A stretch of DNA of 62,477 bases from Seison nebaliae (Eukaryota), in the NCBI GenBank assembly GCA_023231475.1, contig JALJEE010002025.1, positions 1 to 62,477 of the forward strand, given 5' to 3'. Under the pieces are notes generated by a model. The model did no database searches, was not told the origin of the DNA, and saw nothing but the letters and a program-made list of their open reading frames with translations. This document shows positions 1,127 through 61,234 of this stretch, one piece after another; position 1 is the first letter of the stretch; each line of letters begins with the position of its first letter. Both the position numbers and the translations under genes were made by a program.

Positions 1127-2050
1127 TTAATCCCATTTTTGTCGAAATACAGATGAATTAATCTTACGGTTGCCTTCCGGTTTGGACGTACAACCTTTCC
1201 CAGCAACCACATACTTATCGTTATCTTGTCCAATCACTTCTACATATCCGACATCCGGATTAGTATCTCTTTTTCCTTGGGCATTTGCTTGAACTACTTT
1301 GTCGCAAATTTTCACAGAATTCGCATGTAACATACAATCGCTTTTGATGCAACCCTGACGAATAAAGAATAATATGAATATTTTCAGTTGATTGAAATAG
1401 AATGATTGAAAAAATACTTCTTGTGGCGTAGTACAAGTTATCTTAACCATTTGTCCGCCAATCACCTCATAGCGAGCTGCTGTGATACGTTGTAATTCTT
1501 TAGTAATACTTGGTGCTTCATTTCAACAAGGAGAAAAGTTATAAATAAGTTTAAAAGAAAAAGTACAAAGTTCTAGTTTCCTTTTACCGCACTTATCACA
1601 TATTTTCTCTGGTAATCTCTTGATTAGACTTCATAAAAAAGAACAATGATAGAAATGGAGAAATAAATGTGATGCAGAAACTGTGAGATAGGAACATGAT
1701 CGATTGGAGATGTGTCGAGGGAAAAAGTTGGTCGGTTCTTTTCAACTTTTTTCGTTAATTTATCATGATCCGATATGATGTGTCCATCATAGATCGATCT
1801 CCTCCACTGAGTCTTTTTTAATTAATTAAAGAACATTTTAATTGTTAGATTGAAATGAATTAGAACTTTTTGTTCGTGTGGTTTGATGCAATACCAACTG
1901 CCAATTTGACCATGGTCTTTTATCGCTTCTATTTTCTGTTCACAACATTCGCAACTGGAATAAGAGGAAATAAGCGTATTTAAATTAATAATCAAATAAC
2001 GGTATGTTAAATGAATCGGAATTATCTTTCGATTCTTCGGTATCCTTCAT
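1127..2050 (-). CDS. Hypothetical Cys-containing protein, ~210 aa, about 6 exons
   Basis: ATG at 2050 (MKDTEESKDN). Phase-consistent joins give ..IPCECCEQK..WYCIKPHEQK/WRRSIYDG..KICDKC/APSITKELQR.. into ORF 1127-1465. Confidence 0.6.
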
Positions 2051-2422
2051 TTTTACAGAATAGAATGACAAAGATTTAGGAAAGACTAAAACAAAAATAA
2101 ACAAAATTACTATTTTTAACTTCGATTTTTTCTAACATTTCTCCAAAATAAAACGAATTTTCTTTAAATTTCAAAACATGTTCCCCACCTGTGTTGGAAA
2201 AAGACCATATTTAAATGATTTCTGATAATAAACACGAAATCCTTTCTAAACCAAAGTTTGAGGAATAGTTATTGTTAATACAACTTACAATTTGAGGTGT
2301 TAAGAAAATAAATTAAAGAAACAAATTTCCTGTGAATTAAGAATATTAACAGTAGTTGTAAGTAATTATATAAAGTTCGAATTAGAACATATTATTGAAG
2401 AAAGAAAAAGATAGAACATACT

Positions 2423-4642
2423 CTAAATAGTTTTCGGTTGTAACAAATTAGTAGTTTCTTCTTCATCATCTATATAGTTATAACTTCTAAAAGTTTTATC
2501 GAAAAACTGTTTTAATGAATTCCTATACTCTGTTTTCTCCTCGATATTCAGTTGTGTTTTAGTCGAATCAGAATGATTACTTATTACATATGTATTAGTA
2601 TCTTTTGGTTGGGGATTAATGTGCACAGTTTTCTCACAACTGTCAGTAAATTCATCATCATCTGTCGCCATACATGGATCTGTCAAGTTAGTTTGCGGAT
2701 AAGTATTTGTAAACTGACTTTCATCAATTGTATTAGGTAGACCTTTGTAATAGATTCTATTCGAAAAATTAAAATTATCGTCTCGTCCTCCTATAGATGA
2801 GAAGGTGGTCGATAGTGATAATTTTTTCCTTCTTCTTTCATTGAAAGTCACACTTCTACTTTTACTCTTTGAACTTTTCAAAATTGAAGAAGTTTTCATA
2901 TTAGTAGATGATGAACCTTTCAAAGCTTTAGTGGATATATTAGGTGTTACTGGAAAGGAATAGTGTCCTTCATATTCGCTACCTTTAGTCGCATATTCTT
3001 CTTCGAATTTTACATCAACTTTGTCAATTTCATTATTTTTCGCTTCAATTTCTTCATTGATCTTCTCTTCAATTTCATCATTAATCTTCTTATGAAGTTC
3101 TTCATCCGAATTTACTCCCGATTTCTTTACATCTATTAAGTAATCGGGTGTCATTGGATAACGTGATCTATTTATACTATTACGTTCTATACTTACATCG
3201 GAAGGATGTTCCACTCGATGAGTTACACTGGAATTCCATTGTTCGTTCAATTCACCAAATGACATACCTCTTGCTGGTTGACGATAATCATCGTTTACAA
3301 AAGAAGCTGGTGGCATTCCTAATTTTTCCATTATCTCATCCATAATCTCTATTCTTTCCGAACTGAGACGTGTATAATAATAAACTTGTAGACAGATGAG
3401 ATATAAAAGTAGAATAGCAGTAATTAATGCAATTATTACACAATATAAACGGAAAGACTTATAACTCATTTTGATGAGAGGACCATGATGACCACGTTTT
3501 CCATGAGTGATTATTATATCAGTTGTATCATCCTTGTCACAAGAGTAACCTATCTCAAAATTTTCAATTGGTATTATCAAACTTATCAGAGCGATTGATC
3601 GATGAAAGAAATCATCGTTTTTCAATAAAATACTTAGAAAGAGGAAATAAATGAAATTAATCATTTTTAGCTTTGGGAAGAAGATGAAAATTTATTGAAA
3701 TTATTAAAAGGAAATGACGAACTTGATTTCCTGAATTACGGGCATGATGCTTATTTATTTTGAGTGCTGCATGATCTCGCATAAACATATGATGTACTAA
3801 CGCTTTCCGATAATAACGTGAAAATAATCGATTCTTCCTATCGAACAAATCTTCTATATCATCAATAGCTCGATCACGATTCAATCGATTTATACTATTA
3901 TGCAACTAACATTTGACAATTAAGACAATTCAGTTATAATTAATTATAAGAAATTAACTGTAATCTTCACATTCTCGTCCCGATGACAATAATTCACGAG
4001 ACAGGCTGCAGGAGTCTCATCAAGATAATTAATGAAACAAGACTTTTTTGCGAAATATTCCGACAATGCATTCAATTTCCTATCTACAACATTAACATCA
4101 ACGCTAACAATACAACTGAATGAATAATTACGCGTTGCGACCCACGGTTGCAGCACTGCCCATTGTGAGGGATATGTAGTATCGTCTTGCAGTTTATCGT
4201 AAAATACACGACAAAGTAAACGTTTCTTAAATGACGAATAAGTTAACTTTAAAATAATGTAAAATACTTAATGAACTCCGACAACTAACTATTGGATCGA
4301 TTGAAACTAGTACGACAGCTTGATATGATTTAGTATGAACATAATTCTTTCGTTTATAAAAGAAATACACTTTCTACGATCATTAAGCATTAGCACATAT
4401 TGACTAAATAATATGATAAAGAAGTCGATTTAAACATTTCTCATTTTCGAATAAATGTCCATCGTCTCACAATTGACGTTGCCAATATGCAAATAAAATG
4501 ATTGTTTCGCTGGATTTAGGAAATATAAAACTAGGTAATAATTCGATGACTTAATGTCAATTGAATATTACTAACCAACATAATAGAAAACATTTCCGGC
4601 ATAAACTTTTGAGGCATCAAATGCAACAAAATCAAATTTCAT
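2423..4642 (-). CDS. Hypothetical membrane protein with a long low-complexity C-terminal region, about 6 exons
   Basis: ORFs 3944-4156, 3657-3905 and 2423-3664 join in frame through short GTT..AG introns. Hydrophobic helix LYCVIIALITAILLLYLICL. Start at 4642 is tentative. Confidence 0.55.
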
Positions 4643-4814
4643 TGTTTAAATCGATTCTTACTCTTTAATTGGGAAAACAATCAACTTTGTTTATTGTCTC
4701 AATTTAATATATTTTCTTTAATATACAACAACCAATGCTCATCCATCTCAAATTCTTTAAATCATTAATTTCCGATAATATGTATCATATCATTTTAACG
4801 ATCAGCAAACATAA

Positions 4815-4853
4815 ATATATATATATGCGTATATATATATATATATATATATA
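4815..4853. repeat. (TA)n microsatellite, interrupted
   Basis: atatatatatatgcgtatatatatatatatatatatata. Confidence 0.9.
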
Positions 4854-7969: not shown

Positions 7970-10900
7970 ATGATGTGTGATTCAGAAGATGATGAAGCAA
8001 AAATGAGTATAAAATATCGAGAGTGTTTCCAGTTATATAATCAGGATTTATTCAAAGATGGAAATGTCGATGAGAAAATGGTATCAGATTTGGAAACTGA
8101 TGTGGGATCGGATGATGATTCTGATAACGATTCTTCATTAGATTGTGCTCCCCCTGAGAAACCGAATATCTTATCTCGAGAACGACGTCATAAGAAACCG
8201 TGGACTATCAAAGATTTGGCACCAGAAGTCTTGAAAGAAATTTTGGGAACATCTCAACCTGATACTTTGCAGGGAGGAAGTGCATTTGCTGGTTCTAGTG
8301 GTGGAGGAGGAGGAGGAGGAGGTGATGGTTCTGATGAAGATTACGATCCGTCGTTAGATAAAAAAACGGCGAAACGACGACGAATATTACCGAAAATAAA
8401 AACAGTGGAAACTAATTTTGAAGAGAAGAAAAAATATGATAAGAGGAAATATATGAAAACCAAATCTGGTCGTCACGTATTGAAATTTTCTTATATTAAA
8501 GGGGTGGGAAATAGGGATGGTAATAAGAAGAGAAAACTTGATCCTGAAGAAATAAGGATTCTTTCTGAATATCCAACTACAGATCTGAAGGAATTATTAT
8601 GTAATGACGATGGTGGAGAGAGTGAAGATGAGACGTATGAAGATGACCCGGAAGAGGTAGAACTGTGTCGGAAAGAGGATTATGAATTGGAAATAAATGA
8701 AGATGATAATGATGTTGAAGATGATTTGATAAAGACTGTTGTGCCATATGTTACTGAAGCTCCATTGACTTGTGTGACAGATCGTGGTGCAGTTTATTTA
8801 CCAAAGAATACAAATGATCGAGAGATCGAAAAGAAATGTACGAGAAATCCATTCGTTTATATTCATGAGATGAAGGAATTATATAAGAACGGTAAAATGA
8901 AACGAAGTGACATCGAACTTCTCTGTCATTCGCAAAGTGGAGGATTGACCAAATTTAGTTGTCTAAAATATTTGGTCTCATCTGATATGGTTTCCATTTA
9001 CAATACACAACTTTTCCAACAATTGGAAGATAATGAATGGAAAATGAAACGGAAAAAAGAGATTCATGATGCTTATCAAAGTCTTGATGGAGTTTGTAAA
9101 CAAATTTTCAAAGATAATCGCCAATATATTATCAGCAATTTTCCTGTCAGTACTCGAGCAATGAATAATCCGAATAAACGAATACAACAATCGAATATTG
9201 TTACTGAAGAACAGAAAGAGATGGATGAATTGTTTGGAGAGATAGACGATATTATTCATCGAACGAATAAAATGAAAAACAGAAAAGAAATCGAAAATGA
9301 ACCGATAGAGATTAATACTAAGAAAGTAGTGGATGATTTCGTTGAGAAGGAAGGGATCTTTTGTCAAGATCGTAAATTATATGATGATATGAAAGCGATG
9401 TTCATCAAACCTCAAATGAAATTTAATAAAGAAATTTTTCAAATTCAATCACGAATGAAAGCGAAGGAGAAAACGAGACGATTATTATTTGCAGAAAAAG
9501 AATATTATCATCCGTTATTGACCGTTTGCAGCTTATGTGGACGACGAGAGAATGACACTGTCATTTTGAAATGTTCCAGTAAATATGCTTTCTCAAAAAA
9601 GACTTTGTTGAATCAATATGGATGTCTTGAACGAATGGGAATGTTCTTCAATCGATTAATTAGCGATACTGATTCTGAAATATCATTAGGACCATTATTT
9701 GGTCCTTATTTCCTCAATAAGGAAATTCGTAGAAAATTACAGAAACAATATGAATGTGGATATTTCAATCATTTTGGAAAGACGGAAGAAAATGATATTT
9801 GTATGAAGTCTTCATTTTATAAGAAATTGATGGATGTATTGAAATCAAGTGATACATCAAAACTTCTGCGATTTTATGAATTGTTTATTCGTGCATCAAT
9901 GACAAAGAAAATGCCGTTCATTTATATGGAGAAGGAAAGTCGTCAAATGAAAGATAAATTTAAAAAGAAACGTTCATTGAATTATGTGGAAGAAATGAGA
10001 TTAAATATAAATCAATTACAAAATTTATTCAATACGTTAAGAGAGGATAATATTGAGAAAGCATATTCGACTGATGAGGATGAGATGAGTGGAATGAATA
10101 ATCATATGAGAAAAAAATTGAAGAAGAATCGTCATTCGAAAAAAGTAACGAAATTGACTAAAGTGAAAAAACGTATCGAATTCGATATTGAACGAATGAT
10201 GAATAGTCGATTAGATACGTCAAAAGAACGACTCAAATTCTTTCACACATTTATGGAATCATTAAAATTGACATATCAAGGAGTGCGACAATTAATCGAG
10301 AATGCTGAACGTAGTAATGGAGCCGTTTCTTCATCCACATCTATTGTTAACATGAATGTCGAACCGAAGAAGAAAGCCTGTTACATTACACCACAAGGTC
10401 GAGATTTCGGTTTTGAGCCTGGTTCTCCTAAACCACGTACTATGCGCAGTCAAGTAGCCCAGCGTCCTGATCATTATATTTCTCCTTCGTCAATCGTTCG
10501 CAATCCGTCACCTTCACGATTGTCACCCAGTAAAATTAGTCGTCGAATGAAAATTGAGAATTATTCGGATTCTCATTCGAAGTCGTCTCAAAAACTTGAA
10601 CGGAGACATCTTAATATGAAGAATTCCAGTTCTTCCAGGGCTCTCACAAATCCCGTGAGAGATTTAAATAAACTTTTCTTGAGAACTGATGAAAAGATGT
10701 CGAATCGTCCACCGAAAATTGGTAAGAATGTCACTGTACGAGTTCTCCAAATCGATGGACAAGGAAGTGAATGTAATACTTCGACGAATGTGGTAATCAA
10801 CAGTCCTCGTATAACTCGACGAGTTATGAAGAATAGATTGCGGGAGACAAATGAATTAAAGAAGAAAGAGGAAAGGAGAACAGGATTTGTCTGTCCAATC

Positions 10901-11516
10901 TTACAACGAATACCTCAAGATTATTTGGATATGTACAATTATTTCTGTCGTGATGCTCCCATCTATCCGACAATCATTTCGAAAAAAGAAGTTTTCACTC
11001 GAACTCAACTTCGTCAATTTAGGAATTCCATCGTCGAACTATTGAACTTAATGAAGAATGTCGATATACAAAAATTGATCACTTTCAATCATTTAACTCA
11101 TTTGGATGCGGCATATGTCCATTCTAAGTGTGCACTTTGGTCTCCATATATTTGTCAAGTATCTGGACAAATTATTGGTGTCTTTGCCACAATTCTATTT
11201 GGTGCACAAAACGTTTAATTTTTTAGTTATTTGAATAAGAATTCATTTTCATTCTTTTTAGGTTTGCCATTCCTGTGGATTATATGGAGCAACAATTCGA
11301 TGTAAAGAACGTGGATGTAAGGTCGTCCTTCATTATCCATGTGCACTTACACAATCTGGTTAATTTTAATTTTAATTTTTTTGAAATAATTTTCGTGTTT
11401 CAGGTTGTGATATGGATGAAAGTACTTATAGAATTATTTGTCCAAAACATGTCAAATGTGACATGGACCTACCAATACGAATGGAAAGAAACGGAAGAAC
11501 TGGAAACAGAAATTGA
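7970..11516 (+). CDS. RAI1/TCF20-like protein with a C-terminal extended PHD finger, 3 coding exons
   Basis: VCSLC..LGPLFGPY, then VHSKCALWS..VCHSCGLYGATIRC..GC..LHYPCA..GC..IICPKH after removing introns ~11213-11260 and ~11359-11403. Confidence 0.8.
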
Positions 11517-11954: not shown

Positions 11955-14900
11955 ATGATCAAATGGAATAATTTACCATTTGTTGTTGTGATTCTATTAG
12001 TAAGTCTTAAAATTTTAGTAGGTGAATATTATGATGGAATTACTGATGCCATCGTCAATTGGGATAAATCTCCATTTCTCTTACAAACAACTATGTTCGA
12101 TAAATTTTTTTTAAAATTAGTTTTTTGTTAAAATGTTAATTTCTTTCACCTCTCATTAGTATGCCGAGAGATCGACGATTATGGCCGTCGCTCTGTAATG
12201 GACATGTTGGTACAGTAGTCTTCTCCGATACTGTTTTCCTCGATGGAGTTTTTAACGGACCTCGTATGTCCAATTATCGTGCACGAATCCCTTCAACTAT
12301 TGGAATTAATGTAACAATTCCCGGATCACGGAATCGACAATACTCGTTGAATGTTCGTCATGGTTCCCATTTTAACGGTTGATCTGATTCATTAGAGATT
12401 TGCTAATAGGATTTTTTGAAAAAATTGAAAAAAGTAACGATGGAGAAGTCATCCAGAAAATATTCGCACATCGTTCACGTTATGGTATTTTAGTGAATGA
12501 AGTTGAATTGAAAAGAAATGGCGATCGAACACCAGATATCGATATTAATAATACGAGAATTAATGATATGATGCAAGCGAATTTATTTTCGAAAGATATT
12601 CGTTTTGAAAAAATGATAAGGAAAAATATCGATATTCTCAATCAACCATCAGATATTATCCAAAATCTTAAAATGAAACCTGTGTGGCCAATGGTTAAAG
12701 AATATGAGTTATCCATCTTATTACGATGTTTATTAGTATAATTCTATTAATAACAGACATCATATCGGAGTAATTAGAGAATTGGAGAAGAACAGTACCG
12801 GTGATGCCGGTTACACTAAAATTCATGTTTTTTCTACACCTCTGGTATTGAAGTTGAGTTTTCCCATCGAAAAGAAATCGGTAAAGTATGTTAGACTTTT
12901 TTTTTCCCACAATACTCACAATATTTTCACTCTTTGCATTATTTGTGAGTAGCATTTTATTATGTCAGTGGGAACTGATGAAAAGCAAGCACGTGAAGAA
13001 TATTTGTCTGCGTTCAGATCGAGATATGGTTTACTTGTTGAACATGCCAATGTTAAATTTTCCATAATTAAATTGCACCATCATTAAAGTTTGTTGAAAG
13101 AATTGGGAAACGGTATGGGATCGAGGAATAGTTGGATTGAGAAATGAGAATAATGACGTCGAGTATATTGATATGATGCAGAAGATATACAAAAGTTTTT
13201 ACGCGTTATATTCCTCCGTACCGATAGAGTTCGCACAAACGTCAAATCGACTACCAAAATTTTATGGAACAGGAATTGGAAGTTTGTCATATGGAGGAGA
13301 ATGGAAATTTTTTGGTTTTGTTAAAAATGAAAATAAAGATTTGAATAAACCTTTCGGTTATTCGCGAAATGATGTATCAATGGGTGGTCACTTAACATAT
13401 CATCAAGAGATTTGGGTGGCACCAGCATTGATGCCATTCCTTCCGGAATTAGGTAAAACATTTTTAGGATCACGACTACGATCATTATCCGTCGCTCAGA
13501 TATTTGCGGCTAACAACAGTATGCGAGGTGTTCGATGGCCAGTAGAACAAGCGTTCACTGGATATGATATGTGTCCTTCTTTAGAATATAGTCAACAAGA
13601 TCATGTAACTGCCGACGTGGCTTATTTGGCACGATTATATATTCAATTGACACATGATAAGAGATGGATACAAGATACTGGCTATCAATTAGCAAGAGAT
13701 ATAGCTGATTATTATAATAGTCGTTTGACATTATCTCCAAACCAACAATATTATTGGTTGAACAATGTATTCAGTGGAACGATGATCGATGATGGTATAT
13801 TAGGTGATAATGATGCTTTCACAAATGCCATGGTAAAATTGGCTTTTCTTTTACCTAAATACTTTATTTCTATAAACGAAAAGTTTTTTTTCTTCATAAT
13901 ATCATTTCGTTATCTATCTATTAGAAAACCATATGGAGCCGAATTTATAAAACGAACGGAAGAACTTGATAAGAAAAGTCATTTGTTAGTTATTCCAACA
14001 TCTAGCGAATCTGATCAACATTTCGAATATGGCGGACAAAGTAGCGATGAGAAACCTTTCAAAACTTCCAACGTAGTTCTTATAGGATTCCCGGCTCAGA
14101 CAAATATGACCGGTCTATATCGTCGACAAGATATTGATAAGTACAGTGTTGTGATTAATAACCGTTTTGGTGGTCCATATTTCCTCCAATACGCAGCGTC
14201 AACTATCGCTTATTTGGAGACACATTCACAATCGGGCGCTAATCCTCAATTCGATAAAATGAATGAACATTTTCAAGGACCATTTAAAGTTCAGATGTTT
14301 TTTGGAAATCTATTAAATTTATTTCTCGAAAGGTATTGACGGAAAAACCTTTTGTTGGAGAATCCAATGATTGCGGACAAATTAATTATATTCCAGGTCA
14401 TGGAGCGTTTATTCAAGTTTGATCATTATAGAAATTTTCTTAACACATTTTTTCCTTTTATTTTAATCAGACAATCATGAACGGTTATGGAGGCTTAAGA
14501 TATCGAGATTTTCAGATCGACCTCCTTGAACCAACCATGTTACCTACCAGAGGATTACAACGATGGAATATTACTGGTTAGTAAATTAATTTGAACTTGA
14601 TATAATAATGAAAATGATTTGATACTTAAACATTGTAATGAAATGAGTTCTTTCGGAAGTCTTCTCCAAAAATTAATTAGTAAATTTTCAAAATTCTAAC
14701 AATTTTTCTTTTAAAGGTTTTTCTTATATGGGGAATGAATTGGATATATTTTATGAAAGTTCTGTGGTAATCGTTCACAATAAGAGACAAACTAAACAAG
14801 TAAATGATTTATATCATTTAAACGATGAAAATTCCAGAGCAAGTTTACGAATAAAATTTCCAAATAGGTTTAATTGATATATTCGTATCCTGTGATATAA

Positions 14901-15291: not shown

Positions 15292-15387
15292 ATAATTAAG
15301 GAAAGTTTTGTAAAATTTGTAAATAAATTAAGATAGAATAAAATCGATTTCATTTTTTAGAAAAACTAAAATAATTTTAGTGTTTTT

Positions 15388-46271: not shown

Positions 46272-49121
46272 ATGAAAGGTAATATGAGTGATCTCAATAA
46301 ATCGTCGGTCAAATATTATCCATTGGAGACGACATGTCACGGATTATCTAATTTTCACATTATTGATAGTAAGAAAATTCAAACAATCTTTATTCTAGCA
46401 ACTATCGTTAATATTCTTCCCTTTTTCTTATTAGTCTGAATAATTCCACATTATCAGATATGTTTCTTTGCCCTGGTCTCCAATAGCAGTATTCTGATCG
46501 TTGATCATAATAAAAAGAACACATATTTCATTACATCAAATTCTAAATATCAAAATTTACGATTACCAACAATTACAATTTGTAGTAGTAATCAGTTACT
46601 TATTTTTCAGTTAGTTGTAAAATTATGTTTTTGATAGAATATTAAAATCAAAAATGAAGAATGCAATTGAATACGAACATCTTCACAATTTGGAATTTAA
46701 AAAATTTTATGATAAAAAAATCGATTTCAATTCCGTTACCGAATTCTTTCTCTTTCTAATGAATAGAACTGTTCAAGTTGAAAAGAGAGCAAAGATGACT
46801 CAATTTTCTTATGAATACTCCCATATTTTCACCGTATTAGGACAGAATTTATTGGGTTTTAAAATTCTTCACCATCAGTTTTACAAGAACTTTCCACGGA
46901 GCAAACCACCCTTAACATACGAAAAAATTTACCAGAATTATTCATTATACGCCTCAATTATTAACAGCGAAGGACGACGCTTTCACAGAGTTCATGTAAC
47001 ACAAAAGAAAAATATATATGACAACACAATCCAGCCATTCCGTCGATTTTCGATAATGTTACGTTATCTTAATTTGACTCCATCAGTGAAAGATTTTGGT
47101 GGATATTCTAATAGTTTTATTAAAACGGTTAACGAAACATTGGAAATCACCACTTCCGATAGTTGGCCATATTTCAAAAAATTTTTTGTGAAATTTTGGA
47201 AAGACTTAAGCTGCGTAAAGGACAAAAATAACTTAGAACGTTGTCCTTATACTAATGTACCTTATGGTTTTCATCTTGATTTGAAAGAACCATACAAAAG
47301 TTTCTGGGAAGAAGCAGTAACCAGAGTTCTCCATTTCAAAATTTTTGCACTAAAACCATTAAGAAATACATATAGACTGAAAATGGAACTACGTTTATGG
47401 CTGGCATTATTTTCCAACTTTGAAGAACTGTTTACTGTTCTCGATAATATAGTATCGTATAGTTTATTTAACCAATTAAGAAAATTTTATAAGAAGGAAA
47501 ATCTCAAACGAATCCCAGAAAATTTTACTTATGAAGATTTTATACGTAAAAGATATGGAAAATTTGATAGTTTTTACAAAGATCTCCAATTAATTAAAAA
47601 ATTTTTCGTTCGATATCAATCATTCCGTCATGTTTGGAATATTTATGGATTTGGTGAATATAGTTAAATTAAGTCAATATTTTTATTAATTCTTCTTTTG
47701 ATATTATTCAGAAATTAATTTGGGGAAAGTCTTAGAGTTAACTGCTTGGAATATTAACGAAGATCTTCTGGTTTGTTCAATTGGCGGGAGTGTATGTCGA
47801 AGAAATGTTACATTATAATTTTTTCAATTCCAATTTTCCACATTCATTGTTAAAAGCCGTTTAAAAGAATTTATACGATAGAAGGGATTTGTTATCGATC
47901 CGATACACAGTCGATGAAATTAGTGCTCAATAACCAAAGTAATGAAATTGCTACTCAAACGGTTCCAGGTATGACTGGTGGATTGAAAATTATATTCGAC
48001 AATCGTAATTCTTATGATGCCAGTGACTACTCTTTCTTTACAAGAGATTCGAATACTGTCAAAATGTTTGTTCATTCGGAAGATGATTATCCAGCGGTTA
48101 AGACAGGTGGATATTTATTAAACGCTGGATATCATCATGAAATATCGGTAACGTTAAAACAAGTTTGAATAGAAAATTTATAAAGAAAAACCTTCTTTTA
48201 TAAAATTTGTTTAATTAATAACAATTTAGAAAAAAATGATATTACAACAAAATAATGGTGAGAATTCATGCACTAGTTCTTCGTCGTTAACTTGCTTCAA
48301 TCGCTGTTTACAGAAATTTCGTAGAAAACTTAATAAATGTCGACATTTTGGTTATTTTTTTTAAATAATAATCAACTTAACTCTAAAAGATGGTTCTTTT
48401 GATCGGTCATGGATCATTGGAAGAAAGAACGTCGTGTCGGAACAATGTGGATCAATGGCAGATGTACAACTCCTATATGTTTATCCGGACTTTCTTTATG
48501 ATAACGGAGTCATCCAACGAACATGCAAATATTGTATGGCACCGGCATGCAATGAGAAATCTTACATCGTGTCGAATATGCATTCGATTCCTATTGATGA
48601 AAAGAAAATTCCTTTAATGTTGGAAGAACTTCACAGAAAATGTGAAGTTGGTTCTAACAAATTCCTGTATTCAGAAGTTTTGGACGTAGAACATTTCAAC
48701 AAAAATTATTCAACAGAAAAAAAATTAGGACGTAAAAGAAAGTGCATTGATTCGACTAATTGGAAGTTCTTTTCGATTAAATTTCTCCAACAAATTAAGT
48801 TGATTACATTGTTATTACAGAAACAGTGTTTTTAGTGTAAATATTTTTTTCAATGAATTCAACATTATTCGTGAACGAGAAAAATATTTTTGTTCGAACT
48901 ACAAATTATTGGGGGAATTGGGTGGAACGATCGGTATATTTTTGGGAATGAGTTTCGTTACGTTCGTCGAATTAATTTGGTATTGTTGTTGGAATTCAAA
49001 ATATTTCTGGAAGTCAACGATAGACTTGTTCAAGAAACGACAACTCCCAAACGTTTATAAAAAGAAAAAGAGAAATGCAATAATTTTCCCAACAGATCAT
49101 TATATAAGGACAATCTCCTAA
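46272..49121 (+). CDS. DEG/ENaC/ASIC-family channel subunit, 8 exons
   Basis: TTCHG motif, TM1, LPTITICS, GLKIIF, VHS..YP, C..C.PAC, and TM2 GELGGTIGIFLGMSFVTFVE. Confidence 0.9.
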
Positions 49122-51212: not shown

Positions 51213-53991
51213 TTAGAAGAAAGAAAATTTCCAATTGTTAATTTTTTTAACCCCTTTCTCAATTGTTTTCCTCCATATCGATATTCGAAAGTCTATAAAG
51301 AAGAAATATTTGGAAATTTTCATAAAATCTTCTAACAATGATAAATCTTCAATCTTGTCTAATAAGTTATCTGTTTTCGTTTGAAATTGACAAACAACTG
51401 GTACTCGTTCGTTCACTATCTGGTTCTCATTACAATTATTCTTCACAAGTGCACACAAATTCTCTATAAATTCAGCCAGCGGTTTCTCATTTAATAGGCC
51501 ATCCACTTCGATGTCATCGTCTTCGTCAAGTGATGTGTCATTGTTAACGGTTCGATTTTGTTGTAAAAAGTTTAAACGGAAGTCTTCCTTTCTTTCTAAT
51601 GGAATTTCATTTATAGTATCTTCTTCCAATGTTTTCAGACGTTCAAATCGTGGAACGCGTGAAATGTGTCGAATGGGAAATGCTCTTGGTTTATTATAAA
51701 GGAATTGTTCAGAAGAGAATAATTCATCGCCTTCATCACTACTGAATATTGGTGTTAAGTTATCATATGAACCGGTATTCGCATTAAATGTTCGATTGAA
51801 ATTCTTCTTCTCTTTACGCTTTTCTCGTTTCTTCTTACTTCGAGTAACAGACAATACAACAAATGTCACCATGAAAGTGATTAGAATGAAATTGATACAA
51901 AGTGATGCAAGTAACGGGCGATCGTTTATTATTCGCTGAAAAAAATTGGCAAATTTATTACTAAATTGTTCGTTTCCTTCTGTTGAATTTAAATGAGATT
52001 TTATAGGAATTGTATAATTCCCAATAGTAGTTGTATTTTCAATCAGCGTTTTAGTAGATGTAGTGAAATTTTTAATGATGGTGCTGAAGAGTGTTGTGTT
52101 GATATATTGCGAAATTGTTGTTGTCGTCAAATTTTTCATTTCTCCACTAGTAGTCGAGGGAGTGAATGAAGTTAAGAAAACATTGATGATTGACGTCGTA
52201 GAAGTAGTTGAGTTATGTAGGATGGTTGTGGAGCTAAACGGTTTTGTCATGTTTGATGAAATTTTCAAAAACTTAGGAGCTGTCTGATTTATTCGATTTT
52301 TGGGGCTTTCAAGAATCGGAGCAATCGGAGTTGGAACTAAAGACTTTGAAGTTGAATGTGAGAACGATGGAGAAAGTGTGTTATCTTTCACTTTATCCTT
52401 TAACTCCTCATTAGAATAATCATTTTGAGGATTCTCCATCATTTGTTGGATACCTCCTCGATCGATTTGTTTATCGAAATCGATTAATGAGTCATCTATT
52501 ATGTCCAAATCTTTCTCCAATTTAATACCAGGATTAACATTATAATTGTAATTTTTCCGACTATCGATCTGCTGAGTATTTTGCGATGTCGTCGTGGTCA
52601 ACGTGGTTGTCGATGATATTTCGTTATTAGAACCAAATTCGTCTTTATCATTAAATTGTTCAATTTGAGAATTGTCCAAAGCGTCTTGGAAATAATTATA
52701 ATTTCCCAATTCATTCAACGTCTTCTTATAATCATTATCGATTTCCTGTTCGATTTTCGTTTCATTTCGAAGTAGTACTTCATCCTTTCTTTCTTCTTCA
52801 TCGGAAATATCATAAGAAATCGTTTCGTTAAAGTTATAGAAAGGGGTATTTCTAAAAAACTTTTTTAATTGAGCGACCAAATGTTCAGTGTCTAAAACGA
52901 AAGAAAAAAAAGAAAAGAAAAAGGAAATTAATTGGGATTTCTTGGAAATTTTTTTTTTCAAATTTATTGCAATTAATTCCTTAATCGTTAATCAATCAAT
53001 AATACATCATATCGTAATAGATCATCGCTCATTAATATCAAATAAATTAATGACCTGATGATGACATTCGTCGACGTTGATTCCTTCTATATAATTTCTT
53101 CTTTGATATATTACTCGACAATTGTTTAATGTAATCGAATAATGGAAGTGAAATGTCCACATTATTACTCTTCATTTCTGCTTGATTCATCCCTTTTTCA
53201 TGAGAGCCTTTTCTTTTATGTGAAATATCTTCTTCTTCTATTGATATGCCATTGTCGGTATTATTGATGATCTCCTCATGTTCTTCCGATCCTTCACTCT
53301 TACTCGTCGTACTTGTTGACGTTGTAGTCGTCGTTATTGTTGTTGTTGTTGTTATTGGTCCATACTCCTCCATGATATCTTCACCCATTGTTAATTGGGA
53401 TTTGGTCTGATTATCTTGAAGAATAACGTCGAGAAAAGAAGCAACAAATTTATCTTTTGTATCTCCTGTCTTATTTGGCCGATGTGTCGATGGAAAGAAG
53501 AGTGATCGAGTTTCATTTATTTCATCTTTCACATTCGGATACGTTTCATTAATCTGAACATTAGTGGACGAGTTATGGTTGTTTTTCTGATTGAAATCAA
53601 AAATTTTGTATTCTTCTAATTTTCCATTTTTCGATTTAATGTGTTGACGTCGCTGCTGTAGAGGAACGTTCGAGAAAACTCGGATTTTTTCAGGTTCGGC
53701 CTTTGCTGACGGTATATCATTCACCTCCACATCCATATCCTTCGAATTCTCATTCATGATATTCAATACGGTGTGGTAAACGGAAGCGGAATCATTCTTC
53801 TGTTTTGGCTTTCGCATTTGATCCAATAATTTTATATCTGTCTCACTTAACGTACTGCCGTCAGGTTTTACACTCTCCTTATCCACAATTTCATCATATC
53901 CTACCAAATCATAAAGAGACTTAAAGTCTGTCAATTCACCGTTTATTTGTGAAAACGTAAACAATATCGAAATGAATAGAAACGAGCGCAT
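51213..53991 (-). CDS. Mucin-like single-pass type I membrane protein, 2 exons
   Basis: Signal peptide MRSFLFISILFTFSQING, Ser/Thr-rich ectodomain with many NxS/T sites, TM LLASLCINFILITFMVTFVVLSV followed by a basic run. Intron 52892-53054 has a GTC donor. Confidence 0.7.
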
Positions 53992-54401
53992 AATTTCAAA
54001 AAATATTTTTTTAATCAATAACAATTCCAGTTTGTCTCAAATTGGATTAAACTCCTTCAATTTATATCCATTTCAATCAATTCATTTAATTTGTGAAAGT
54101 TCAAAAAAGTATTGGATTCATTTCAATTTTATTCATTATCCACAAACAAAGGAAAAATTTTCTATTTCATTTATATTCTATTTTTCGTTTATGCTACTCT
54201 TTCTCATCTCGAATTTCCGTGAAATTTTTAATTTAATTAATCTTAATTCACTTCAAATCGAGATTCAATCGGATGATCCATTTTCCGCCAAACTCAAGTA
54301 ACATCAATCTAATTCAGTAAATATTTCCAACTTTGTCGTTTGCAATTTCACGAGATTCATTTTCTTCATTAAACGAAATATAAGAAAAAGAAAGAAATGA
54401 A

Positions 54402-57400
54402 TTAAGAGAAAACTTTGGGTAAATTCTCTCCATCAATTTCCGTTTGTTCCATCATTTTTCCTTCTCTTTCTTCAATTTTCGAAGTTGGAAAATTATCCGA
54501 AATTTTTCCATCAACTAAATCGGTTGATGGTAATGAATTATCATCATTCTTATCAGAGATACTATTGTCAGTGTCTTCCACTGATTCGGATGATTGGGAG
54601 TAACTTCCAATTTTTCTCTCATGATTCCGTTTCTTTCGCTGTCTTCTAGCACGGTTCTTTAACGTTGTCATGGTGACGGGATTGTCTTGTTCATCAAACT
54701 CTAAAATTTCGTCAGCTGAAATCGATTCAAGTGATAGACGTCGTTGACGTTTCAAATCTGGATTACGATCCAACAACGAGATGACAGATGTTCCTGGTTT
54801 GAAAACGGCACTTTGAATTCGATTTGAAAATCGAACATGTTTAGTTTGATGACAAGATTTGAAAGAGACATCATCGAAATCATCCAATTTATCGATTGAT
54901 GTGACTGAATCGGTAACTTTATCACTTTCCCCTTCATCATCCTGAACGTCATTCAAAGAGTATGAGCGACCAGAACTTTTGAGGATTCCTTTCAATTGTT
55001 TCTTCTCTTCACACGGAAAAGAAGAGAATGATTTGGACAAATGAAATTTGGTGGAATGTTCAGATTGAGAAATTCGTTCAGATAACGAATTAGTTCTTCC
55101 AAGTAAAGAGATGTCATCATTGAATTTATTCTGATTATTTTTCCTTAAAATTTCTTGTTTATTTTTCCGTTGATTTTCTCTCATTTTCTTATCTAATTTT
55201 ATTTGTTTTTTTGTTCTCTTCCTTCGATTTTTCATATTCTTATTCTTCAACTCTCCATTCTTCCCATTTCTTTTTTCAGCGTCATCGGAAGTTGAGGTAC
55301 TTCCTCTCCTAACGAAACGTAAAACATTCGGTTGTTCCACTTCTTCTGGAATGTTCGTTGATTCCTGAACATTCTCTTCTTCTCCTTCATGCAATTTTCC
55401 CACTTGGTTATCTTTCTTATTCAAATTTGTCATTTCATCAACTTCTTCCTTCACCATCGATTGATCAGATTTTATACCATCTTCTTTCATATTATTAATT
55501 ACATCATCCTCTTCTTTCATTTGGAATTCATTCGTCGATTCTTCTAAATTATTTTCAATTTTTTCTGAGAGTTCCAGAATATTTTCAGTTTTCTCTGATA
55601 GTTCCAAATTATTTTCCGTTATTTTTGATAATTCCACAATATTTTCTGTTTTCTCCGATAGTTCCAAAATATTCTCAGTTTTCTCCAACTCATTTGAAAG
55701 ATTCTCTACATTTTTCAATTCTTCCAAAATATTTACAGTTTTCTTTGGATCATGTGAATCGTTCGTAACTTCTCCTCTTTCTGCACTTTTTTCTTCAACC
55801 GTCAAATGTGGTGACATATGATGCAGAGTAGAAATCTCTGTTAAATTCGATTCCAAATTACACCATCCATTTTTATCAGTTTCATTCACTTTTAAGTCGT
55901 TATGTTGAATTTCCTCAATAACTTCAATGCCTTTGAATTGGAATTCTGACGGAAGATCACACTTCTTTTCAATATCATTCACTTTCTCATTATTCTTCTC
56001 TTCTCTATCAATGGTAATTTTAGGTTTGATATGTTCGAGAATTGGTAGCCGAACGGTTAACTGATAACTGGCTGATTTGAATTCTGCCGTCGCTTCATCA
56101 ATATTAAATCGGAATCGTTTGAATTCCTTTTGTAATTCAAATTTCCCATCTTTAGTTTCGACTTTAACACTGTTCTCAAATACATCTAATTCTACATCAT
56201 CTAATGAATATAGAGGTAAATCCATCACAATCTTCAATGAAGTTGCTTCATTTCCTCTAATATTCGACTTTTCAGTACCAGGAACAATAGGCGCATCTAA
56301 TTTCCCCCAATCTTCATAACAATGAATAACTTGATATTTCGGTGTTTGTTTCTCCAATTTTTTCTCTTCTTTTATAATTATTTTCTTTTTCTCTATCGAT
56401 TCCTTTTTCGTTCCTTCCAAATTGAGTTTCTTTTCCATAAATTTCCGCATATTCTCATTTTCCTCTTCTCCTTTCAATTGTTTTGCAAATTCATCGACCG
56501 AAACATTCCTCACAACACACGCCTTCATTACTCCTTTACATTTCATTTTAGGATATTTGAGATTGCGTGACAATTTCACATTATATGTTTTCTCCACAAC
56601 TTCCACTGCAACTGATTCGATCGCTTGTTTCATTTGTCGCAACTTTCCTCCCAATTCTATCGTTTTCGGATGGAAAACTACGTCAACTGCTACACTTTCC
56701 CGTTGGACATGATCGACACAATCCCGTTTGGGACACATGGAATGTGGTATGTTCCACACCATCTTCTCCCGACAAAATTTCGCTTCGGCAACTTCTTTGC
56801 ACGTACCAATATTGATGAACCATTTCGTCTTATCTGAAAGAAAAATAAATTCAAAATTTAATTTCTTTCGAGTAACTTCGATCTTCAGTAATCGTTTTTA
56901 CAACGTATTGTGGGGATGGATGAATAAATTTCACATTAGCATGTCCTCGTTCCTTCTCCAACTCGATTATTTCATTTTCATATAATTCTCTAATATTCGG
57001 AAGAAACAAATTTTATAAATTGTTTAACAAATTTGTAAGTGAAATTTTAAGTGAAAACTAAAATAAATGAAGAAATGATCAAGTAAAAATTTGAAATAAT
57101 TTCAAGAATTCTAAATTTTAAGAGAACTGAATTTAAATTCATTTGAAAAGAAATTAGAGAATTAGAGGGAAGTTGATTGGGAGAAGAAGAGACGAATTAA
57201 ATTAATAAATTAAATAGAAATTGATAGAAAGATTGGTAAGAGAAATAACCGATTTTCAGGACTTTCCAGTTCCTGAGCATATTGAGCAAATAATTTACAA
57301 AATTCTTTACTTTTAAAAGCATTCTTCAAATTACTCATCTCATCTTGTGAGAGATTGAGATCTTTCAACTTCTTAAAACTCTCGTCCTTCTCCCGATTAG

Positions 57401-57425
57401 TTGTCTTTGTTGTCGTTTCATTCAT
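54402..57425 (-). CDS. DNAAF2: Protein kintoun (PIH1-domain dynein assembly factor), 3 exons
   Basis: AFKSKEFCKLFAQYAQEL..PENRELYENEIIELEKERG..VKFIHP, WNIPHS, DVVFHP, PKMKCKG, CS domain, LKGILK and KHVRF. Confidence 0.9.
55537..55690 (-). repeat. Coding tandem repeat, about 5 x 30 nt (EKTENILELS)
   Basis: EKTENILELS EKTENIVELS KITENNLELS EKTENILELS EKIENNLEES within DNAAF2. Confidence 0.85.
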
Positions 57426-58307: not shown

Positions 58308-58900
58308 ATGGGACTTCTCTCGTTTTTGAAGAAGATGCAATCGAAAAATTCCGCAAAGGAATTACGCATCGTAATCTTGGGACTTGATAACTCAGGTAAA
58401 ACGACTATTCTCAAAAGTCTCGCTAAAGAGAACATCCAACAAGTGACACCCACGCAAGGTTATTGTCATTGTCTGTGACTAATTTATTAATAGTCAATTT
58501 CTTAGGATTTAATGTGAAAACTGTTCAGTCAGAAAATATGAAACTAAACTTGTGGGATATTGGTGGACAACGGAATATTCGATCGTATTGGAATAATTAT
58601 CTAGAACATACAGATATTTTAATATTCGTAATTGATAGTTCGGATCGGCAAAGATTCGAAGAAACAGCTATCGAACTGGATGAATTGACATGTAACGACC
58701 AGTTGAATGGAGTACCTTTACTAGTTTTCGCGAACAAACAAGATTTACCTAACGCCAGTCGAGATGAAGAAATTGCTCACACACTCCAATTACATACTAT
58801 TAAGAATCGTGATTGGCACATTCAGCCATGCTGCGCGTTAAGTGGTGAAGGCTTAGCGGATGGTATGCAATGGATTGGAAGGAAATCTAATGAAATGTAA
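58308..58900 (+). CDS. ARL3: ADP-ribosylation factor-like protein 3, 2 exons
   Basis: [54 protein letters not shown]. Intron 58459-58505. Confidence 0.93.
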
Positions 58901-58919
58901 TAATATGTCTTTTTCGTTT

Positions 58920-58958: not shown

Positions 58959-59224
58959 TGATCTTGAGTTGTGGTTTTCCTATGAGTTTTCTCCTCTAAT
59001 CTCTCTATTTCTTACGCTCATTCTTTAACATTGTTTAAATGATGAATAAGTTATCTAAATAAAATTTGACCGATGGTAAATCAATTTTCTCCAATAATCT
59101 TTGTTTAAAGATAAGAATAAAGAAAATTTGTCAAAAAAGGAAATAACATTGAATTTTAGCTTTGAAGCCAATTAACATTTATTAAAATAATGAAGATTCG
59201 TTTCTCCAATTAACATCAATTAGA

Positions 59225-60349
59225 ATGGCGGAACAACAATTAAGGAAGAAAATAAAAGATAAAGTTGGGGAAACGGCCACGATCGATGAATCGCTGTTAT
59301 GCGATGTGACGACATGTGAAGAAAAAGAGAATGCCATTGAATCTTGTGGTCCTATGAAAGTTAATGAATTGGAATCGGAAGGAATCTCTTCAGCTGATTG
59401 TCTACGATTATCGCGTGCAGGTTATGTTTCCGTCGAATCTGTTGCATATGCGATGCGTCGCAATTTGGTAGAAGTGGAGGGATTATCAGAAGCGAAAGTT
59501 GCTCGAATAATAGTTAGTGTTTCTTTAATTTTTTTAATGCATTTCTTCTGAAAGAAATCTGCACAAAAACTTGTGCCTATCGGATTCTCTACAGCAACGT
59601 CTCTCTATCAACAACGAGCGGAGATGATAAAGATTTGTACTGGTTCTGCGCAACTTGACAAGTTGTTAGGAGGCGGAATTGAGACTGGAAGTATCACTGA
59701 AATTATTGGGGATTTCAGAACGGGAAAATCACAATTATGCCATCAATTAATTGTGTGTTGTCAATTGCCGATTTCTTTAGGTGGAGCGGGTGGGAAAGCA
59801 TTATTTCTGGATACCAGTGGTTGTTTTCGACCTGAACGAGTGATATCAATAGCTCAACGATATAACCTAGATCCAAATGCAGTTCTGAATAATATCAGTT
59901 ATACGAAAGTGCCAAACTCGGAGGCACAAATGCAATTGTTACAACAAGCAGCAGAAATTATGATACAAGCGAGATATGCTATTTTGGTAGTAGATAGTGC
60001 TACTGAATTATTTCGTACTGATTATCAAGGTCGAGGAGAATTGGCCGATCGTCAACAATCGCTAGCTCGATTTATGAGATTACTCCAGAAATTATCTTAC
60101 GAATTTGGCGTGGCTGTTGTGGTGACGAATCAAGTAGTTGCCAATGTTGACGGAGGAATGTATTCTGGTGAAAACAAGAAACCCATCGGTGGCCACATCA
60201 TGGGTCATATGTCTCATTCGCGATTAATGTTAAGGAAAGGTAAAGGCAATGTGCGAATTTGTAAAATTTATTCTAGTCCATCATTAGCTGAAGGAGAAGC
60301 GAAATTCGAGATTCAGTCTGATGGAATCACGGATGAAACGGTCGACTAG
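59225..60349 (+). CDS. RAD51: RAD51-family recombinase (divergent), 2 exons
   Basis: HhH N-domain, [43 protein letters not shown] and KPIGG. Intron 59513-59554. Confidence 0.85.
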
Positions 60350-60518
60350 ATTTAACGTGTTTTCTCATATTTATCATTTACCTTATCGTATTATTCAATA
60401 TTAAAAAAAAATCTATATTTTGATATTCTAAAATAAACATTGTTATTGTTATTTAATGATAGGAAATTCGGTTTGTGAAGATAAATTGTTCTTCTAACGA
60501 ATGTTGGCCAATATTAAT

Positions 60519-61234
60519 TTAGACGATATGTAAATAATCTACAGTACAGTCACCTCGTACCATAACATGATCAACATATTGGAAATTTTCACGATGACGA
60601 AATTCACCGAAATGTCGTCCATTAATCGCAATCTGTTTAATGGAAATAACATTTTTTAAAGGAAAACTTAGAAACTACGAACCTTGTAGTCAAACGGAGT
60701 GCAATGGACCATAATTTCAAATTGTTGTCCCGGCATCATGTTGAACGGTTCACCATGTCTTTCTTCATTTGACCAGTTACCTTGAATTGCTGAATTTCGT
60801 ACTATGCAATGTTCACTCACACGAGGATTTATATGGAGGAAAACATCTTGAATTTCAGTCGAGTATCCCCGTTGTAGGTTTAGTGAAAATCCATCGTTTG
60901 TTAAGGTTCCTCGAAATACAACCGTTTTACCAATTTGCATTCCGCCCATAACTGGCACACAATAAGGAGTATTGAATCCGCGGAAACCTCCCTGGAAAGA
61001 AGGACCAAAATTGAATTTATTTACCCAATCGTTACCATACCCCCCTCCCATTGGATTGGCACCACCCATTGGTGGAGCACCACCCATTGGTGGAGCACCA
61101 GGATAGCCACCTTGCTGAGGATAGGTTGCACCACCATAAGGTTGTTGATTCGGATATCCACCGGGATAGCCACCTGGACCACCTGGCGGTGGTTGATATC
61201 CACCGGGACCGCCTGGATTCATTGGATAATTCAT
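60519..61234 (-). CDS. Galectin with a Gly/Pro/Tyr-rich N-terminal tail and one CRD, 2 exons
   Basis: PGGYPGGYP-type tail. CRD FLHINPR..IVRNS..GNWSNEER..YK/IAINGRHFGEFRHR. Intron 60633-60682. Confidence 0.9.

What the first reader, a model, noticed from the sequence alone, without database searches (positions are those of the whole stretch)
1127..61234. Near-universal GTT 5' splice sites suggest a rewired donor code
Seen: of about 65 coding introns rebuilt by hand from frame and homology, about 62 begin GTT. Examples are ARL3 58459 GTTATT, RAD51 59513 GTTAGT, galectin 60682 GTTCGT, all four globin introns, all ten GH65, all eight TBC1D23, all seven DEG/ENaC and all eleven in the ADAM-like gene. 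Positions +4 to +6 vary (GTTCCC, GTTTAA, GTTCAG, GTTTTT) and +5G is a minority. At TBC1D23 the adjacent GTG donor (35601) breaks the frame while GTT (35596) restores it. Exceptions are GTC (53054), GTA (1587) and one ambiguous case (1417 GTA or 1447 GTT). Known: the metazoan U2-type consensus is GTRAG, with +3 purine pairing to U1 and +5G pairing to U1 and the U6 ACAGAG box. Inference: this lineage changed 5' splice-site recognition, through a variant U1 5' end, U6 box or U1-associated proteins. AT richness alone would favour GTA as much as GTT.
Basis: partly seen in the sequence, partly recalled or inferred. Interest (0 to 1): 0.92.

Follow-up and report, generated by a model that had tools for sequence, protein, structure and literature searches.

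The report
Seison introns start GTT, not GTA
In Seison nebaliae, a tiny rotifer relative that lives on crustaceans, nearly every predicted intron in this stretch of DNA begins GTT where related animals have GTA, which likely means its splicing machinery has been re-tuned to read a different intron-start signal.

Summary
Confirmed at DNA level; no RNA was available. The window is Seison nebaliae (GenBank proteins match exactly). Of 63 rebuilt introns, 61 begin GTT. Blind sets agree: GenBank models 23 of 23; TBC1D23 homology 8 of 8; a donor-neutral gene model 19 of 21 (background 0.44). AT richness is excluded: bdelloid-like rotifer loci of equal AT content and intron size give +3 T in 7 of 158 introns. 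Five TBC1D23 introns sit at ancestral positions whose donors elsewhere have a purine at +3 in 55 of 56 cases, so old introns were rewritten in place. The rest of the motif stays in register (+4A, +5G enriched, +6G rare), so this is a substitution, not a shifted register. A T-rich tract follows at +7..+12. Most likely cause (about 0.5, untested): U1 position 6 changed to A, helped by a TIA-1-type factor. Seison's U1 could not be read. Closest known case: Entamoeba GUUUGU. This scan noted GTT donors before in protists (Bonamia, foraminifers); my searches found no animal case.

The parts
1127..2050 (-). Unnamed Cys-rich gene; donors 2000, 1866, 1681 GTT; 1566 (or 1587) GTA, an exception; 1417 GTA or 1447 GTT, ambiguous and left out of counts
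   Evidence: donor-neutral model; no Pfam hit at cut-off
3906..3958 (-). Intron of an unnamed gene, donor 3958 GTT
   Evidence: posterior 0.93
7973..11516 (+). Large gene with a C-terminal Cys/His finger; donors 11213, 11359 GTT
   Evidence: posteriors 0.99 and 0.70; open frame after splicing
11955..15291 (+). GH65 gene (SNEBB_006898); ten GTT donors: 12095, 12363, 12708, 12890, 13052, 13883, 14289, 14417, 14577, 14868
   Evidence: exact mapping of GenBank protein P0241; same ten found by the neutral model (trained on their acceptors and lengths)
15388..15912 (-). Ly6/uPAR-fold gene; donors 15881, 15671 GTT
   Evidence: Pfam UPAR_LY6 below cut-off; open frame; 15881 placed by hand
16447..17378 (-). 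Globin gene; donors 17178, 16957, 16784, 16640 GTT (start codon uncertain)
   Evidence: donor posteriors 0.82-1.0; weak Pfam Globin hit
23433..28201 (-). ADAM-like gene (SNEBB_006901); twelve GTT donors: 27886, 27426, 27300, 27069, 26869, 26491, 26265, 26174, 25948, 25173, 24763, 24382
   Evidence: mapping of GenBank protein P0243
29258..32156 (-). Unnamed gene; donors 30787, 30362 GTT
   Evidence: posteriors 0.86 and 0.66; open frame
33093..36081 (-). TBC1D23 gene; eight GTT donors: 35980, 35821, 35596, 35335, 35157, 34988, 33747, 33588; five (35821-34988) at positions shared with other animals
   Evidence: profile test; spliced alignment with single homologues; shared positions
42316..45995 (+). 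Ig-domain receptor tyrosine kinase; donors 42655, 43545, 43966 GTT
   Evidence: Pfam; posteriors 0.99-1.0; open frame
46272..49121 (+). DEG/ENaC gene; seven GTT donors: 46407, 46595, 47663, 47807, 48163, 48351, 48766
   Evidence: Pfam ASC; first four from the neutral model (0.59-0.92), last three placed by hand; open 831-codon frame
51259..53991 (-). Unnamed membrane protein gene; donor 53054 GTC (exception, no in-frame GTT within 90 nt upstream), donor 51336 GTT
   Evidence: the junction at 53054 has no homology support
54304..57425 (-). PIH1-domain gene; donors 57249, 56876, 54413 GTT
   Evidence: Pfam; posteriors 1.0; open frame
58308..58900 (+). ARL3 gene; intron 58459-58505, GTT
   Evidence: PDB ARL3 alignment across the junction; open frame
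59225..60349 (+). RAD51 gene (SNEBB_006912); intron 59513-59554, GTT
60519..61234 (-). Galectin gene; intron 60682-60633, GTT
   Evidence: Pfam; posterior 0.98

Best explanation
The predicted introns in this Seison nebaliae window are short GT-AG introns whose third base is T in 61 of 63 cases, where bdelloid-like relatives have A, and the most likely cause is a matching change in U1 snRNA (position 6 to A, giving ACUAAC in place of ACUUAC) that would pair with GUU. Shown: the +3 swap, its absence in relatives of equal AT content, its presence at ancestral intron positions, the unshifted remainder of the motif (consensus GTTAGT/GTTAAT) and a T-rich tract at +7..+12. Inferred: U1 pairs in the normal register with a new A-U pair at +3; a TIA-1/Nam8-type protein binds the U-rich tract and helps load U1 on these weak sites; U6 need not have changed, because its contact with +3 is weak; old donors were converted in place during a period of relaxed or dual recognition.
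For: +3 is as fixed in Seison (97% T) as in bdelloid-like loci (94% A), about 1 bit in both: a swapped, not a lost, constraint. +4A (33 of 63, p = 0.002) and +5G (17 of 63 against 8.8%, p = 2e-5) remain in the normal register. Against the canonical U1 5' end (taken from L011) Seison donors average 5.44 pairs and -1.97 kcal/mol, bdelloid-like 6.65 and -4.77; of all single changes, position 6 to A gives the best fit (6.39 pairs, -3.16) (circular in part, since it restates the logo). +3 C is 1 of 63, which fits A better than G at that position. T at +7..+12 is 59% against 38% in bdelloid-like introns (p = 6e-9). Precedent: Entamoeba GUUUGU with U1 ACAAAC (10.1101/2022.06.08.495308) while its U6 keeps ACAGAGA (PMC13292270). 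+3 contacts U6 G44 only weakly (PMC11732430). TIA-1 recruits U1 through U-rich sequence behind weak donors (PMC9311317).
Against: Seison's U1 was not read. The only U1-like contig laid from the runs that hold the window could be Seison's own and its 5'-end letters are not shown. Most lineages with atypical (+4) donors keep a canonical U1 (yeasts, Giardia, Trichomonas, Thecamonas, Mamiellales). A 2026 review still treats Entamoeba as lacking U1, so the precedent is contested. Even with the changed U1, 57% of Seison donors stay weaker than -3 kcal/mol, so pairing alone does not define the sites. Two of 63 donors are GTA or GTC. In the tunicate Fritillaria U1 5' ends did not diverge for new splice sites (PMC13326754). 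No RNA reads; one window only.
Confidence: 0.5

Rival explanations
1. U1 RNA is canonical (or lost) and proteins set the +3 U preference: an altered U1-C, LUC7 or TIA-1/Nam8-type factor reads GUU plus the U-rich tract behind it.
For: Seison-specific U-rich tract at +7..+12; half of the donors (32 of 63) have neither -1G nor +5G; most atypical-donor lineages keep a canonical U1 and Entamoeba U1-C is highly diverged; TIA-1 acts through U1-C.
Against: The constraint is on one base (+3, 97%) while +4 is A more often than T (33 against 17 of 63), which is sharper than a general U-rich preference would give; residual +4A/+5G still mirror the U1/U6 register.
Confidence: 0.28
2. The U6 ACAGAGA box changed (G44 to A), so that U6 pairs with +3 U after hand-over from U1; this could also relax the 3' end (more AAG acceptors).
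For: [quoted passage not shown]
Against: Entamoeba splices GUU donors with a canonical ACAGAGA; the box is described there as conserved in nearly all species; the AAG excess is modest and bdelloid-like introns already use AAG at 17%.
Confidence: 0.12
3. No change in recognition: GTT arises from T-rich composition plus hand-picking or gene-predictor bias.
For: GTT is the commonest GTN (40-44%; 68 of 139 inside Seison introns). No spliced reads. How the GenBank models were made is unknown to me. My neutral model alone chose GTC at two TBC1D23 junctions and invented one GTC intron, so frame alone is sometimes ambiguous.
Against: Homology overturned those picks in favour of GTT. The same model with unchanged parameters gives A 83, T 10, C 4, G 3 of 100 on seven bdelloid-like loci. 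Bdelloid-like introns are as T-rich (42-43%) yet 7 of 158 start GTT (Fisher p about 1e-43).
Confidence: 0.05
4. Canonical U1 binds in a register shifted or bulged by one base, as proposed for GUUAAGU-type sites.
For: GTTAA is the commonest five-base start (11 of 63); earlier scan notes describe such classes in protists.
Against: The shift predicts G at +6: seen in 2 of 63, below background, while G is enriched at +5. Seison +4..+8 fits bdelloid +4..+8 far better than +3..+7 (log-likelihood -397 against -476, before three coordinate slips were fixed). Shifted pairing is lower than in-register pairing (5.09 against 5.44).
Confidence: 0.03
5. The introns are recent insertions of a transposon (introner) that carries a GTT end.
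For: Three TBC1D23 introns (35980, 33747, 33588) were not matched to positions in other animals.
Against: Five TBC1D23 introns lie at the same residue and phase as in bdelloid-like and other animal loci, where +3 is A 51, G 4, T 1 of 56. The printed introns share no visible sequence beyond composition (by eye).
Confidence: 0.02

Closest known systems
Entamoeba GUUUGU donors with co-evolved U1 ACAAAC (Roy and Bowser, bioRxiv 10.1101/2022.06.08.495308; passages read)
   Same: Near-universal U at +3 of GT-AG introns; predicted solution is an A at the facing U1 position.
   Different: Entamoeba is an intron-poor protist with a strong six-base consensus and two changed positions. Seison is an animal with about one intron per kb here, only +3 changed, weak +4..+6, and its U1 is not yet read.
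Mastigamoeba balamuthi GUGCGC donors with U1 ACGUAC (same preprint)
   Same: Intron-richer genome with a single compensatory U1 change.
   Different: The change is at +4, and the organism is an amoebozoan.
+4U donors of lineages that lost METTL16/SNRNP27K (PMC11732430, passages; PMC10581693, search listing only)
   Same: Lineage-wide shift of one donor position tied to the recognition machinery.
   Different: Affects +4 through U6 A43; in Seison +4 is still mostly A (33 A, 17 T of 63) and +3 is the changed base.
Fritillaria borealis non-canonical introns (PMC13326754; abstract and first part of Discussion)
   Same: An animal with a genome-wide change in splice signals.
   Different: There 95% of introns leave GT/AG, with U2AF paralogues and m6A changes and no diverged U1 5' end; Seison keeps GT-AG.
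Shifted-register 5' splice sites (Roca and Krainer 2009; seen only as cited in PMC9311317)
   Same: Donors begin GUU.
   Different: Needs G at +6; Seison has G at +5 and 2 of 63 at +6.
Bonamia GTT donors with AAG acceptors (earlier scan notes e1-9778931, e1-9738631; unchecked AI notes)
   Same: GTT donors, weak +5G, frequent AAG acceptors.
   Different: A protist with 19-32 nt introns; Seison introns are 41-66 nt for the most part (median 49).

Membership tests
U2-type (major) spliceosomal introns | GT...AG ends | tested here: met
   63 of 63. My gene model allowed only GT-AG, but the exact mapping allowed any ends and found a GT-AG placement at 11 of 11.
U2-type (major) spliceosomal introns | Purine at +3 (GTR), as in animals | tested here: not met
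   1 of 63 against 96% in 158 bdelloid-like and 84% in 60 other animal introns.
U2-type (major) spliceosomal introns | +4A/+5G tendency in the normal register; T-rich 3' end | tested here: met
   +4A p = 0.002, +5G p = 2e-5; T 55% at -14..-9.
U2-type (major) spliceosomal introns | Branch-point motif | tested here: inconclusive
   No motif above shuffles in Seison or in bdelloid-like introns.
U2-type (major) spliceosomal introns | Removal from RNA | tested here: inconclusive
   No RNA holder listed; the laid runs are DNA.
Entamoeba-type transformed donor with co-evolved U1 | Near-universal U at +3 | tested here: met
   61 of 63.
Entamoeba-type transformed donor with co-evolved U1 | Strong GUUUGU consensus (+4U, +5G, +6U) | tested here: not met
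   +4T 17, +5G 17, +6T 32 of 63.
Entamoeba-type transformed donor with co-evolved U1 | Intron-poor genome | tested here: not met
   63-64 introns in 62.5 kb; up to 12 per gene.
Entamoeba-type transformed donor with co-evolved U1 | U1 pairing region complementary to the new donor | tested here: inconclusive
   one U1-like contig per run, 5'-end letters not listed, probably not Seison's.
Shifted-register donors | Motif displaced by one base (G at +6) | tested here: not met
   +6G 2 of 63, +5G 17 of 63; likelihood and pairing tests.
METTL16/SNRNP27K-loss (+4U) class | U preferred at +4 | tested here: not met
   +4 A 33, T 17, C 12, G 1.
METTL16/SNRNP27K-loss (+4U) class | Loss of METTL16 and SNRNP27K | not testable with these tools
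   No whole genome held.
Introner-derived introns | Lineage-specific new positions | tested here: not met
   5 of 8 TBC1D23 introns at positions shared with other animals.
Introner-derived introns | Sequence similarity among introns | not tested
   Looked at by eye only.

The most novel reading that the evidence does not exclude
Seison is an animal whose U1 snRNA pairing region has been rewritten (ACUUAC to ACUAAC) and whose tens of thousands of ancestral introns were converted in place from GTA/GTG to GTT since its split from bdelloid rotifers: a genome-wide compensatory swap of the donor code in an intron-rich animal, backed by a U-rich enhancer behind each donor.
Probability: 0.5. Interest if true: 0.85.

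Novelty: new variant of a known kind. Interest (0 to 1): 0.72.

Why it matters
The +3 purine of animal donors and the U1 5' end are treated as fixed. Here one animal lineage has flipped +3 at almost every intron, including ancestral ones, while relatives of the same base composition have not. One window extrapolates to roughly 45,000 introns (64 per 62.5 kb over the 43.9 Mb assembly size given in PMC8351084; rough). How such a signal can change at all sites at once is an open question that Roy and Bowser pose for intron-poor protists. Seison offers an intron-rich animal case with orthologous introns in close relatives, and the key test (reading U1, U6, U1-C, LUC7, TIA-1 in an existing assembly) is a day's work. 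It also matters for annotating seisonid genomes with predictors trained on GTR donors.

Tried and rejected
No whole genome is held, so no genome-wide logo and no search for spliceosomal genes. No RNA holder listed; X1, X2 and X5 laid on 12000-31999 show no intron joints and X6 laid nothing. Rfam on the window: one tRNA, no snRNA. First gene model had too cheap starts and stops and was discarded. The GenBank TBC1D23 protein was not returned (probably longer than the 798 aa searched). U1 pattern in viral contigs: 6 matches, none passed Rfam. U1 pattern in genome contigs: 5 of 7 were U1 genes. Laying four runs on one of them (L011) at 80% gave one contig per run over 67 letters with 12 differences, of which only one is listed. 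Its depth is 5-18 against about 14 and 28-29 for the window, its X2/X1 depth ratio is 3.3 against 2.0, and the 30 letters before it are 60% GC (54 of 29,132 non-coding 30-mers of the window reach that), so I read it as host or other DNA; it says nothing on Seison's U1, and absence of a second contig is no evidence (a filter drops some). A reader-independent GC-drop statistic over all GTN was flat, as expected with 61 donors among 2,280 GTT. Branch-point search flat. No -1G/+5G see-saw (4 with both, about 5 expected). A structural paper on 3' splice-site docking, looked up by a recalled id, is not held, so the link between +3 and AAG acceptors rests only. Controls: 51 of the 80 fetched loci were tallied; 18 bdelloid-like loci gave 158 non-identical introns after four same-organism loci were dropped, and four duplicate loci were dropped from the 60 other animal introns; the other 29 loci were run later, were mostly transcripts or duplicates, showed no GTT-dominated locus with more than one scored intron and were not added. 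Literature: no paper holds 'Seison' with 'spliceosom'; searches showed no animal with GTT donors. Subscription journals are mostly not searched, and I did not read the supplements of PMC8351084 or of the bioRxiv preprint, which may bear on this.

Full report
Source. The second RAD51 exon is 100% identical to a GenBank protein named SNEBB_006912 [Seison nebaliae] on a contig of 62,477 bases; the next hit listed by identity is 64%. The GH65 and ADAM-like genes likewise match SNEBB_006898 and SNEBB_006901. Seisonids are epizoic members of Rotifera/Syndermata living on Nebalia crustaceans; the published genome has compact genes and 31.9% GC, and the passages I read say nothing on splice-site sequence (PMC8351084, passages). 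The window is 28-38% GC. No whole genome is held and no RNA run was listed; the runs that hold the window are DNA. All introns below are therefore predictions from frame, homology or annotation.

Observation. Background: GTT is 40-42% of GTN in the window, 44% in non-coding and 35% in coding DNA. Three tests avoid hand-picking. First, GenBank proteins mapped back on the DNA give 23 of 23 GTT donors (GH65 10, RAD51 1; ADAM-like 12); how those models were made is unknown to me. Second, for TBC1D23 every in-frame GT-AG pair within 30 nt of each junction was scored against a profile of 16 homologues: the GTT donor is best at 8 of 8 junctions and beats non-GTT rivals at 6 of 6 by 6.8-25 bits. Single heterologous proteins in a spliced aligner blind to +3 recover the same five central junctions; the one or two extra calls they make in the poorly conserved tail (GTA, GTG, GTC) lie inside an open exon and were not counted. 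Third, a gene model that emits donor +3..+6 as background gave 19 GTT and 2 GTA among 21 short, high-posterior introns in genes not used for training (p = 1.2e-5). Against this: the same model chose GTC at two TBC1D23 junctions and invented one GTC intron, which homology overturned. The curated set (63 introns, some placed by hand, the 1417/1447 case left out) has 61 GTT, 1 GTA, 1 GTC; the spliced frames checked are open. Median intron length is 49 nt.

Controls. A scan of metagenome contigs with the TBC1D23 alignment returned 80 loci. Eighteen loci whose best match is a bdelloid protein (67-90% identity, 25-36% GC, introns mostly 45-65 nt; not identified to species) gave 158 distinct introns: +3 A 94%, G 2%, T 4% (7 of 158). 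Sixty introns from other, unidentified animals gave A 67, G 17, C 3, T 13%. The donor-neutral model with unchanged Seison parameters gave A 83, T 10, C 4, G 3 of 100 on seven bdelloid-like loci, so the method does not create GTT. Composition does not either: intron bodies are 42-44% T in both groups. Five Seison TBC1D23 introns fall at the same residue and phase as introns of bdelloid-like and other animal loci; the 56 orthologous donors have A 51, G 4, T 1 at +3. Two globin introns appear to sit at the ancestral B12.2 and G7.0 positions (recalled, not aligned). Old introns were thus rewritten in place.

Anatomy of the signal (n = 63). Exon: -2 A 34, -1 G 18. Intron: +3 T 61; +4 A 33, T 17, C 12, G 1; +5 A 22, G 17; +6 T 32, A 25, G 2. 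+4A and +5G exceed the intron background (p = 0.002, 2e-5); +6G does not. Information at +3 is 0.97 bit against 1.07 in bdelloid-like introns. The weak +4..+6 is shared with them (+5G 33%), so the Seison-specific changes are the +3 swap and a T-rich tract at +7..+12 (59% against 38%, p = 6e-9; also above Seison's own +13..+24, p = 7e-5). True GTT donors differ from 85 nearby decoy GTT mainly in that tract and in A/G at -3..-1. Of 69 nearby GTA/GTG sites, 21 match the canonical consensus better than the predicted donor does (any frame). Acceptors are TAG 31, AAG 20, CAG 12; AAG is 27 of 158 in bdelloid-like introns (p = 0.028). No branch-point motif rises above shuffles.

Mechanism. In the canonical register +3 faces U1 position 6 (from the pairing given in PMC9311317, passages) and, after hand-over, interacts weakly with U6 G44 (PMC11732430, passages). 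With the canonical U1 end Seison donors pair poorly (5.44 pairs, -1.97 kcal/mol, against 6.65 and -4.77 for bdelloid-like donors); the best single change is position 6 to A (6.39, -3.16). This restates the logo and is not proof. The precedent is Entamoeba, where GUUUGU goes with a U1 reading ACAAAC (10.1101/2022.06.08.495308, passages) and U6 keeps ACAGAGA (PMC13292270, passages); the same sources show that most atypical-donor lineages keep a canonical U1 and that a recent review still counts Entamoeba as having no U1. I put the U1 change at 0.5, a protein-based reading at 0.28, a U6 change at 0.12, artefact at 0.05, a shifted register at 0.03 and introners at 0.02. The U-rich tract fits a TIA-1/Nam8-type helper under either of the first two; that step is inferred.

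Attempt to read U1. Five U1 genes were recovered from public contigs. Laying four runs that hold the window on one of them at 80% likeness gave one contig per run, 67 letters with 12 differences, only one of them listed, followed by a typical stem-loop 2 sequence. Its depth (5.4, 17.9, 16, 15.2; the window has about 14 in X1 and 28-29 in X2 and X5) and its 60% GC flank (reached by 54 of 29,132 non-coding 30-mers) suggest another organism, probably the host. The test is inconclusive.

Comparison and novelty. It works like the Entamoeba case but is not a member of it: no GUUUGU consensus, no intron poverty, U1 unread. It is not the shifted-register class (+6G absent), not the +4U class, and not the non-GT/AG system of Fritillaria (PMC13326754, abstract and part of Discussion). 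Earlier notes of this scan describe GTT donors in protists (unchecked); none names Seison and none covers this genome. Paper searches found no report for Seison or another animal, within a library that lacks most subscription journals. PMC10125929 (passages) mentions Seison lamin splice variants but no donor motif.

Verdict. New variant of a known kind; interest 0.72, rising to about 0.85 if the U1 change is found.

Noticed in passing
   Followed up: yes
window, all introns: AAG acceptors are frequent (20 of 63; GAAG and AAAG ends are common), somewhat above bdelloid-like introns (27 of 158).
   Followed up: partly
window, all introns: G at +4 is nearly absent (1 of 63; about 5-6 expected from intron composition; 11% in bdelloid-like introns).
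   Followed up: no
window 23433-28201 (-): The ADAM-like protein (SNEBB_006901) has HQxxH in place of the usual HExxH in its zinc-binding motif (family motif recalled), so it may be catalytically weak or inactive; its only other hit is a 1,914-aa Seison paralogue at 32% identity.
   Followed up: no
window 1127-2050 (-): Both GTA candidates lie in this one small Cys-rich gene without a Pfam hit; 1417 GTA and 1447 GTT are in frame and could be alternative donors.
   Followed up: partly
window 37100-39000 (-): Fragmented, GC-richer reverse-transcriptase element (Pfam RVT_1) between TBC1D23 and the helicase gene.
   Followed up: no
window 6943-7791, 28495-28941, 39199-41157, 49909-50799: Otubain, RPS15, a DEAD-box helicase and an MTHFSD-like gene appear intronless; TBC1D23 lacks about ten introns that bdelloid-like loci have in its central part, so Seison has also lost many introns.
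   Followed up: partly
window 59225-60349 (+): RAD51 is unusually diverged for an animal (best non-self identity 64% over exon 2); it might be a DMC1-like or fast-evolving copy.
   Followed up: no
L030, L035, L036, L046, L050, L051, L053: One bdelloid-like TBC1D23 intron position repeatedly carries GTTAAT, and L065 has one GTTTGT, so GTT donors are tolerated at low frequency in the relatives.
   Followed up: no
L007, L008, L009, L011, L012: Bacterial MAG contigs in the genome collection contain animal U1 snRNA genes, i.e. eukaryotic contamination.
   Followed up: no
window 50968-51039 (-): A single tRNA gene (Rfam).
   Followed up: no
window 21338-22004 and 26007-26673: Summed contig depth doubles in these bins in X1, X2 and X5; probably short matches from other contigs, not examined.
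   Followed up: no
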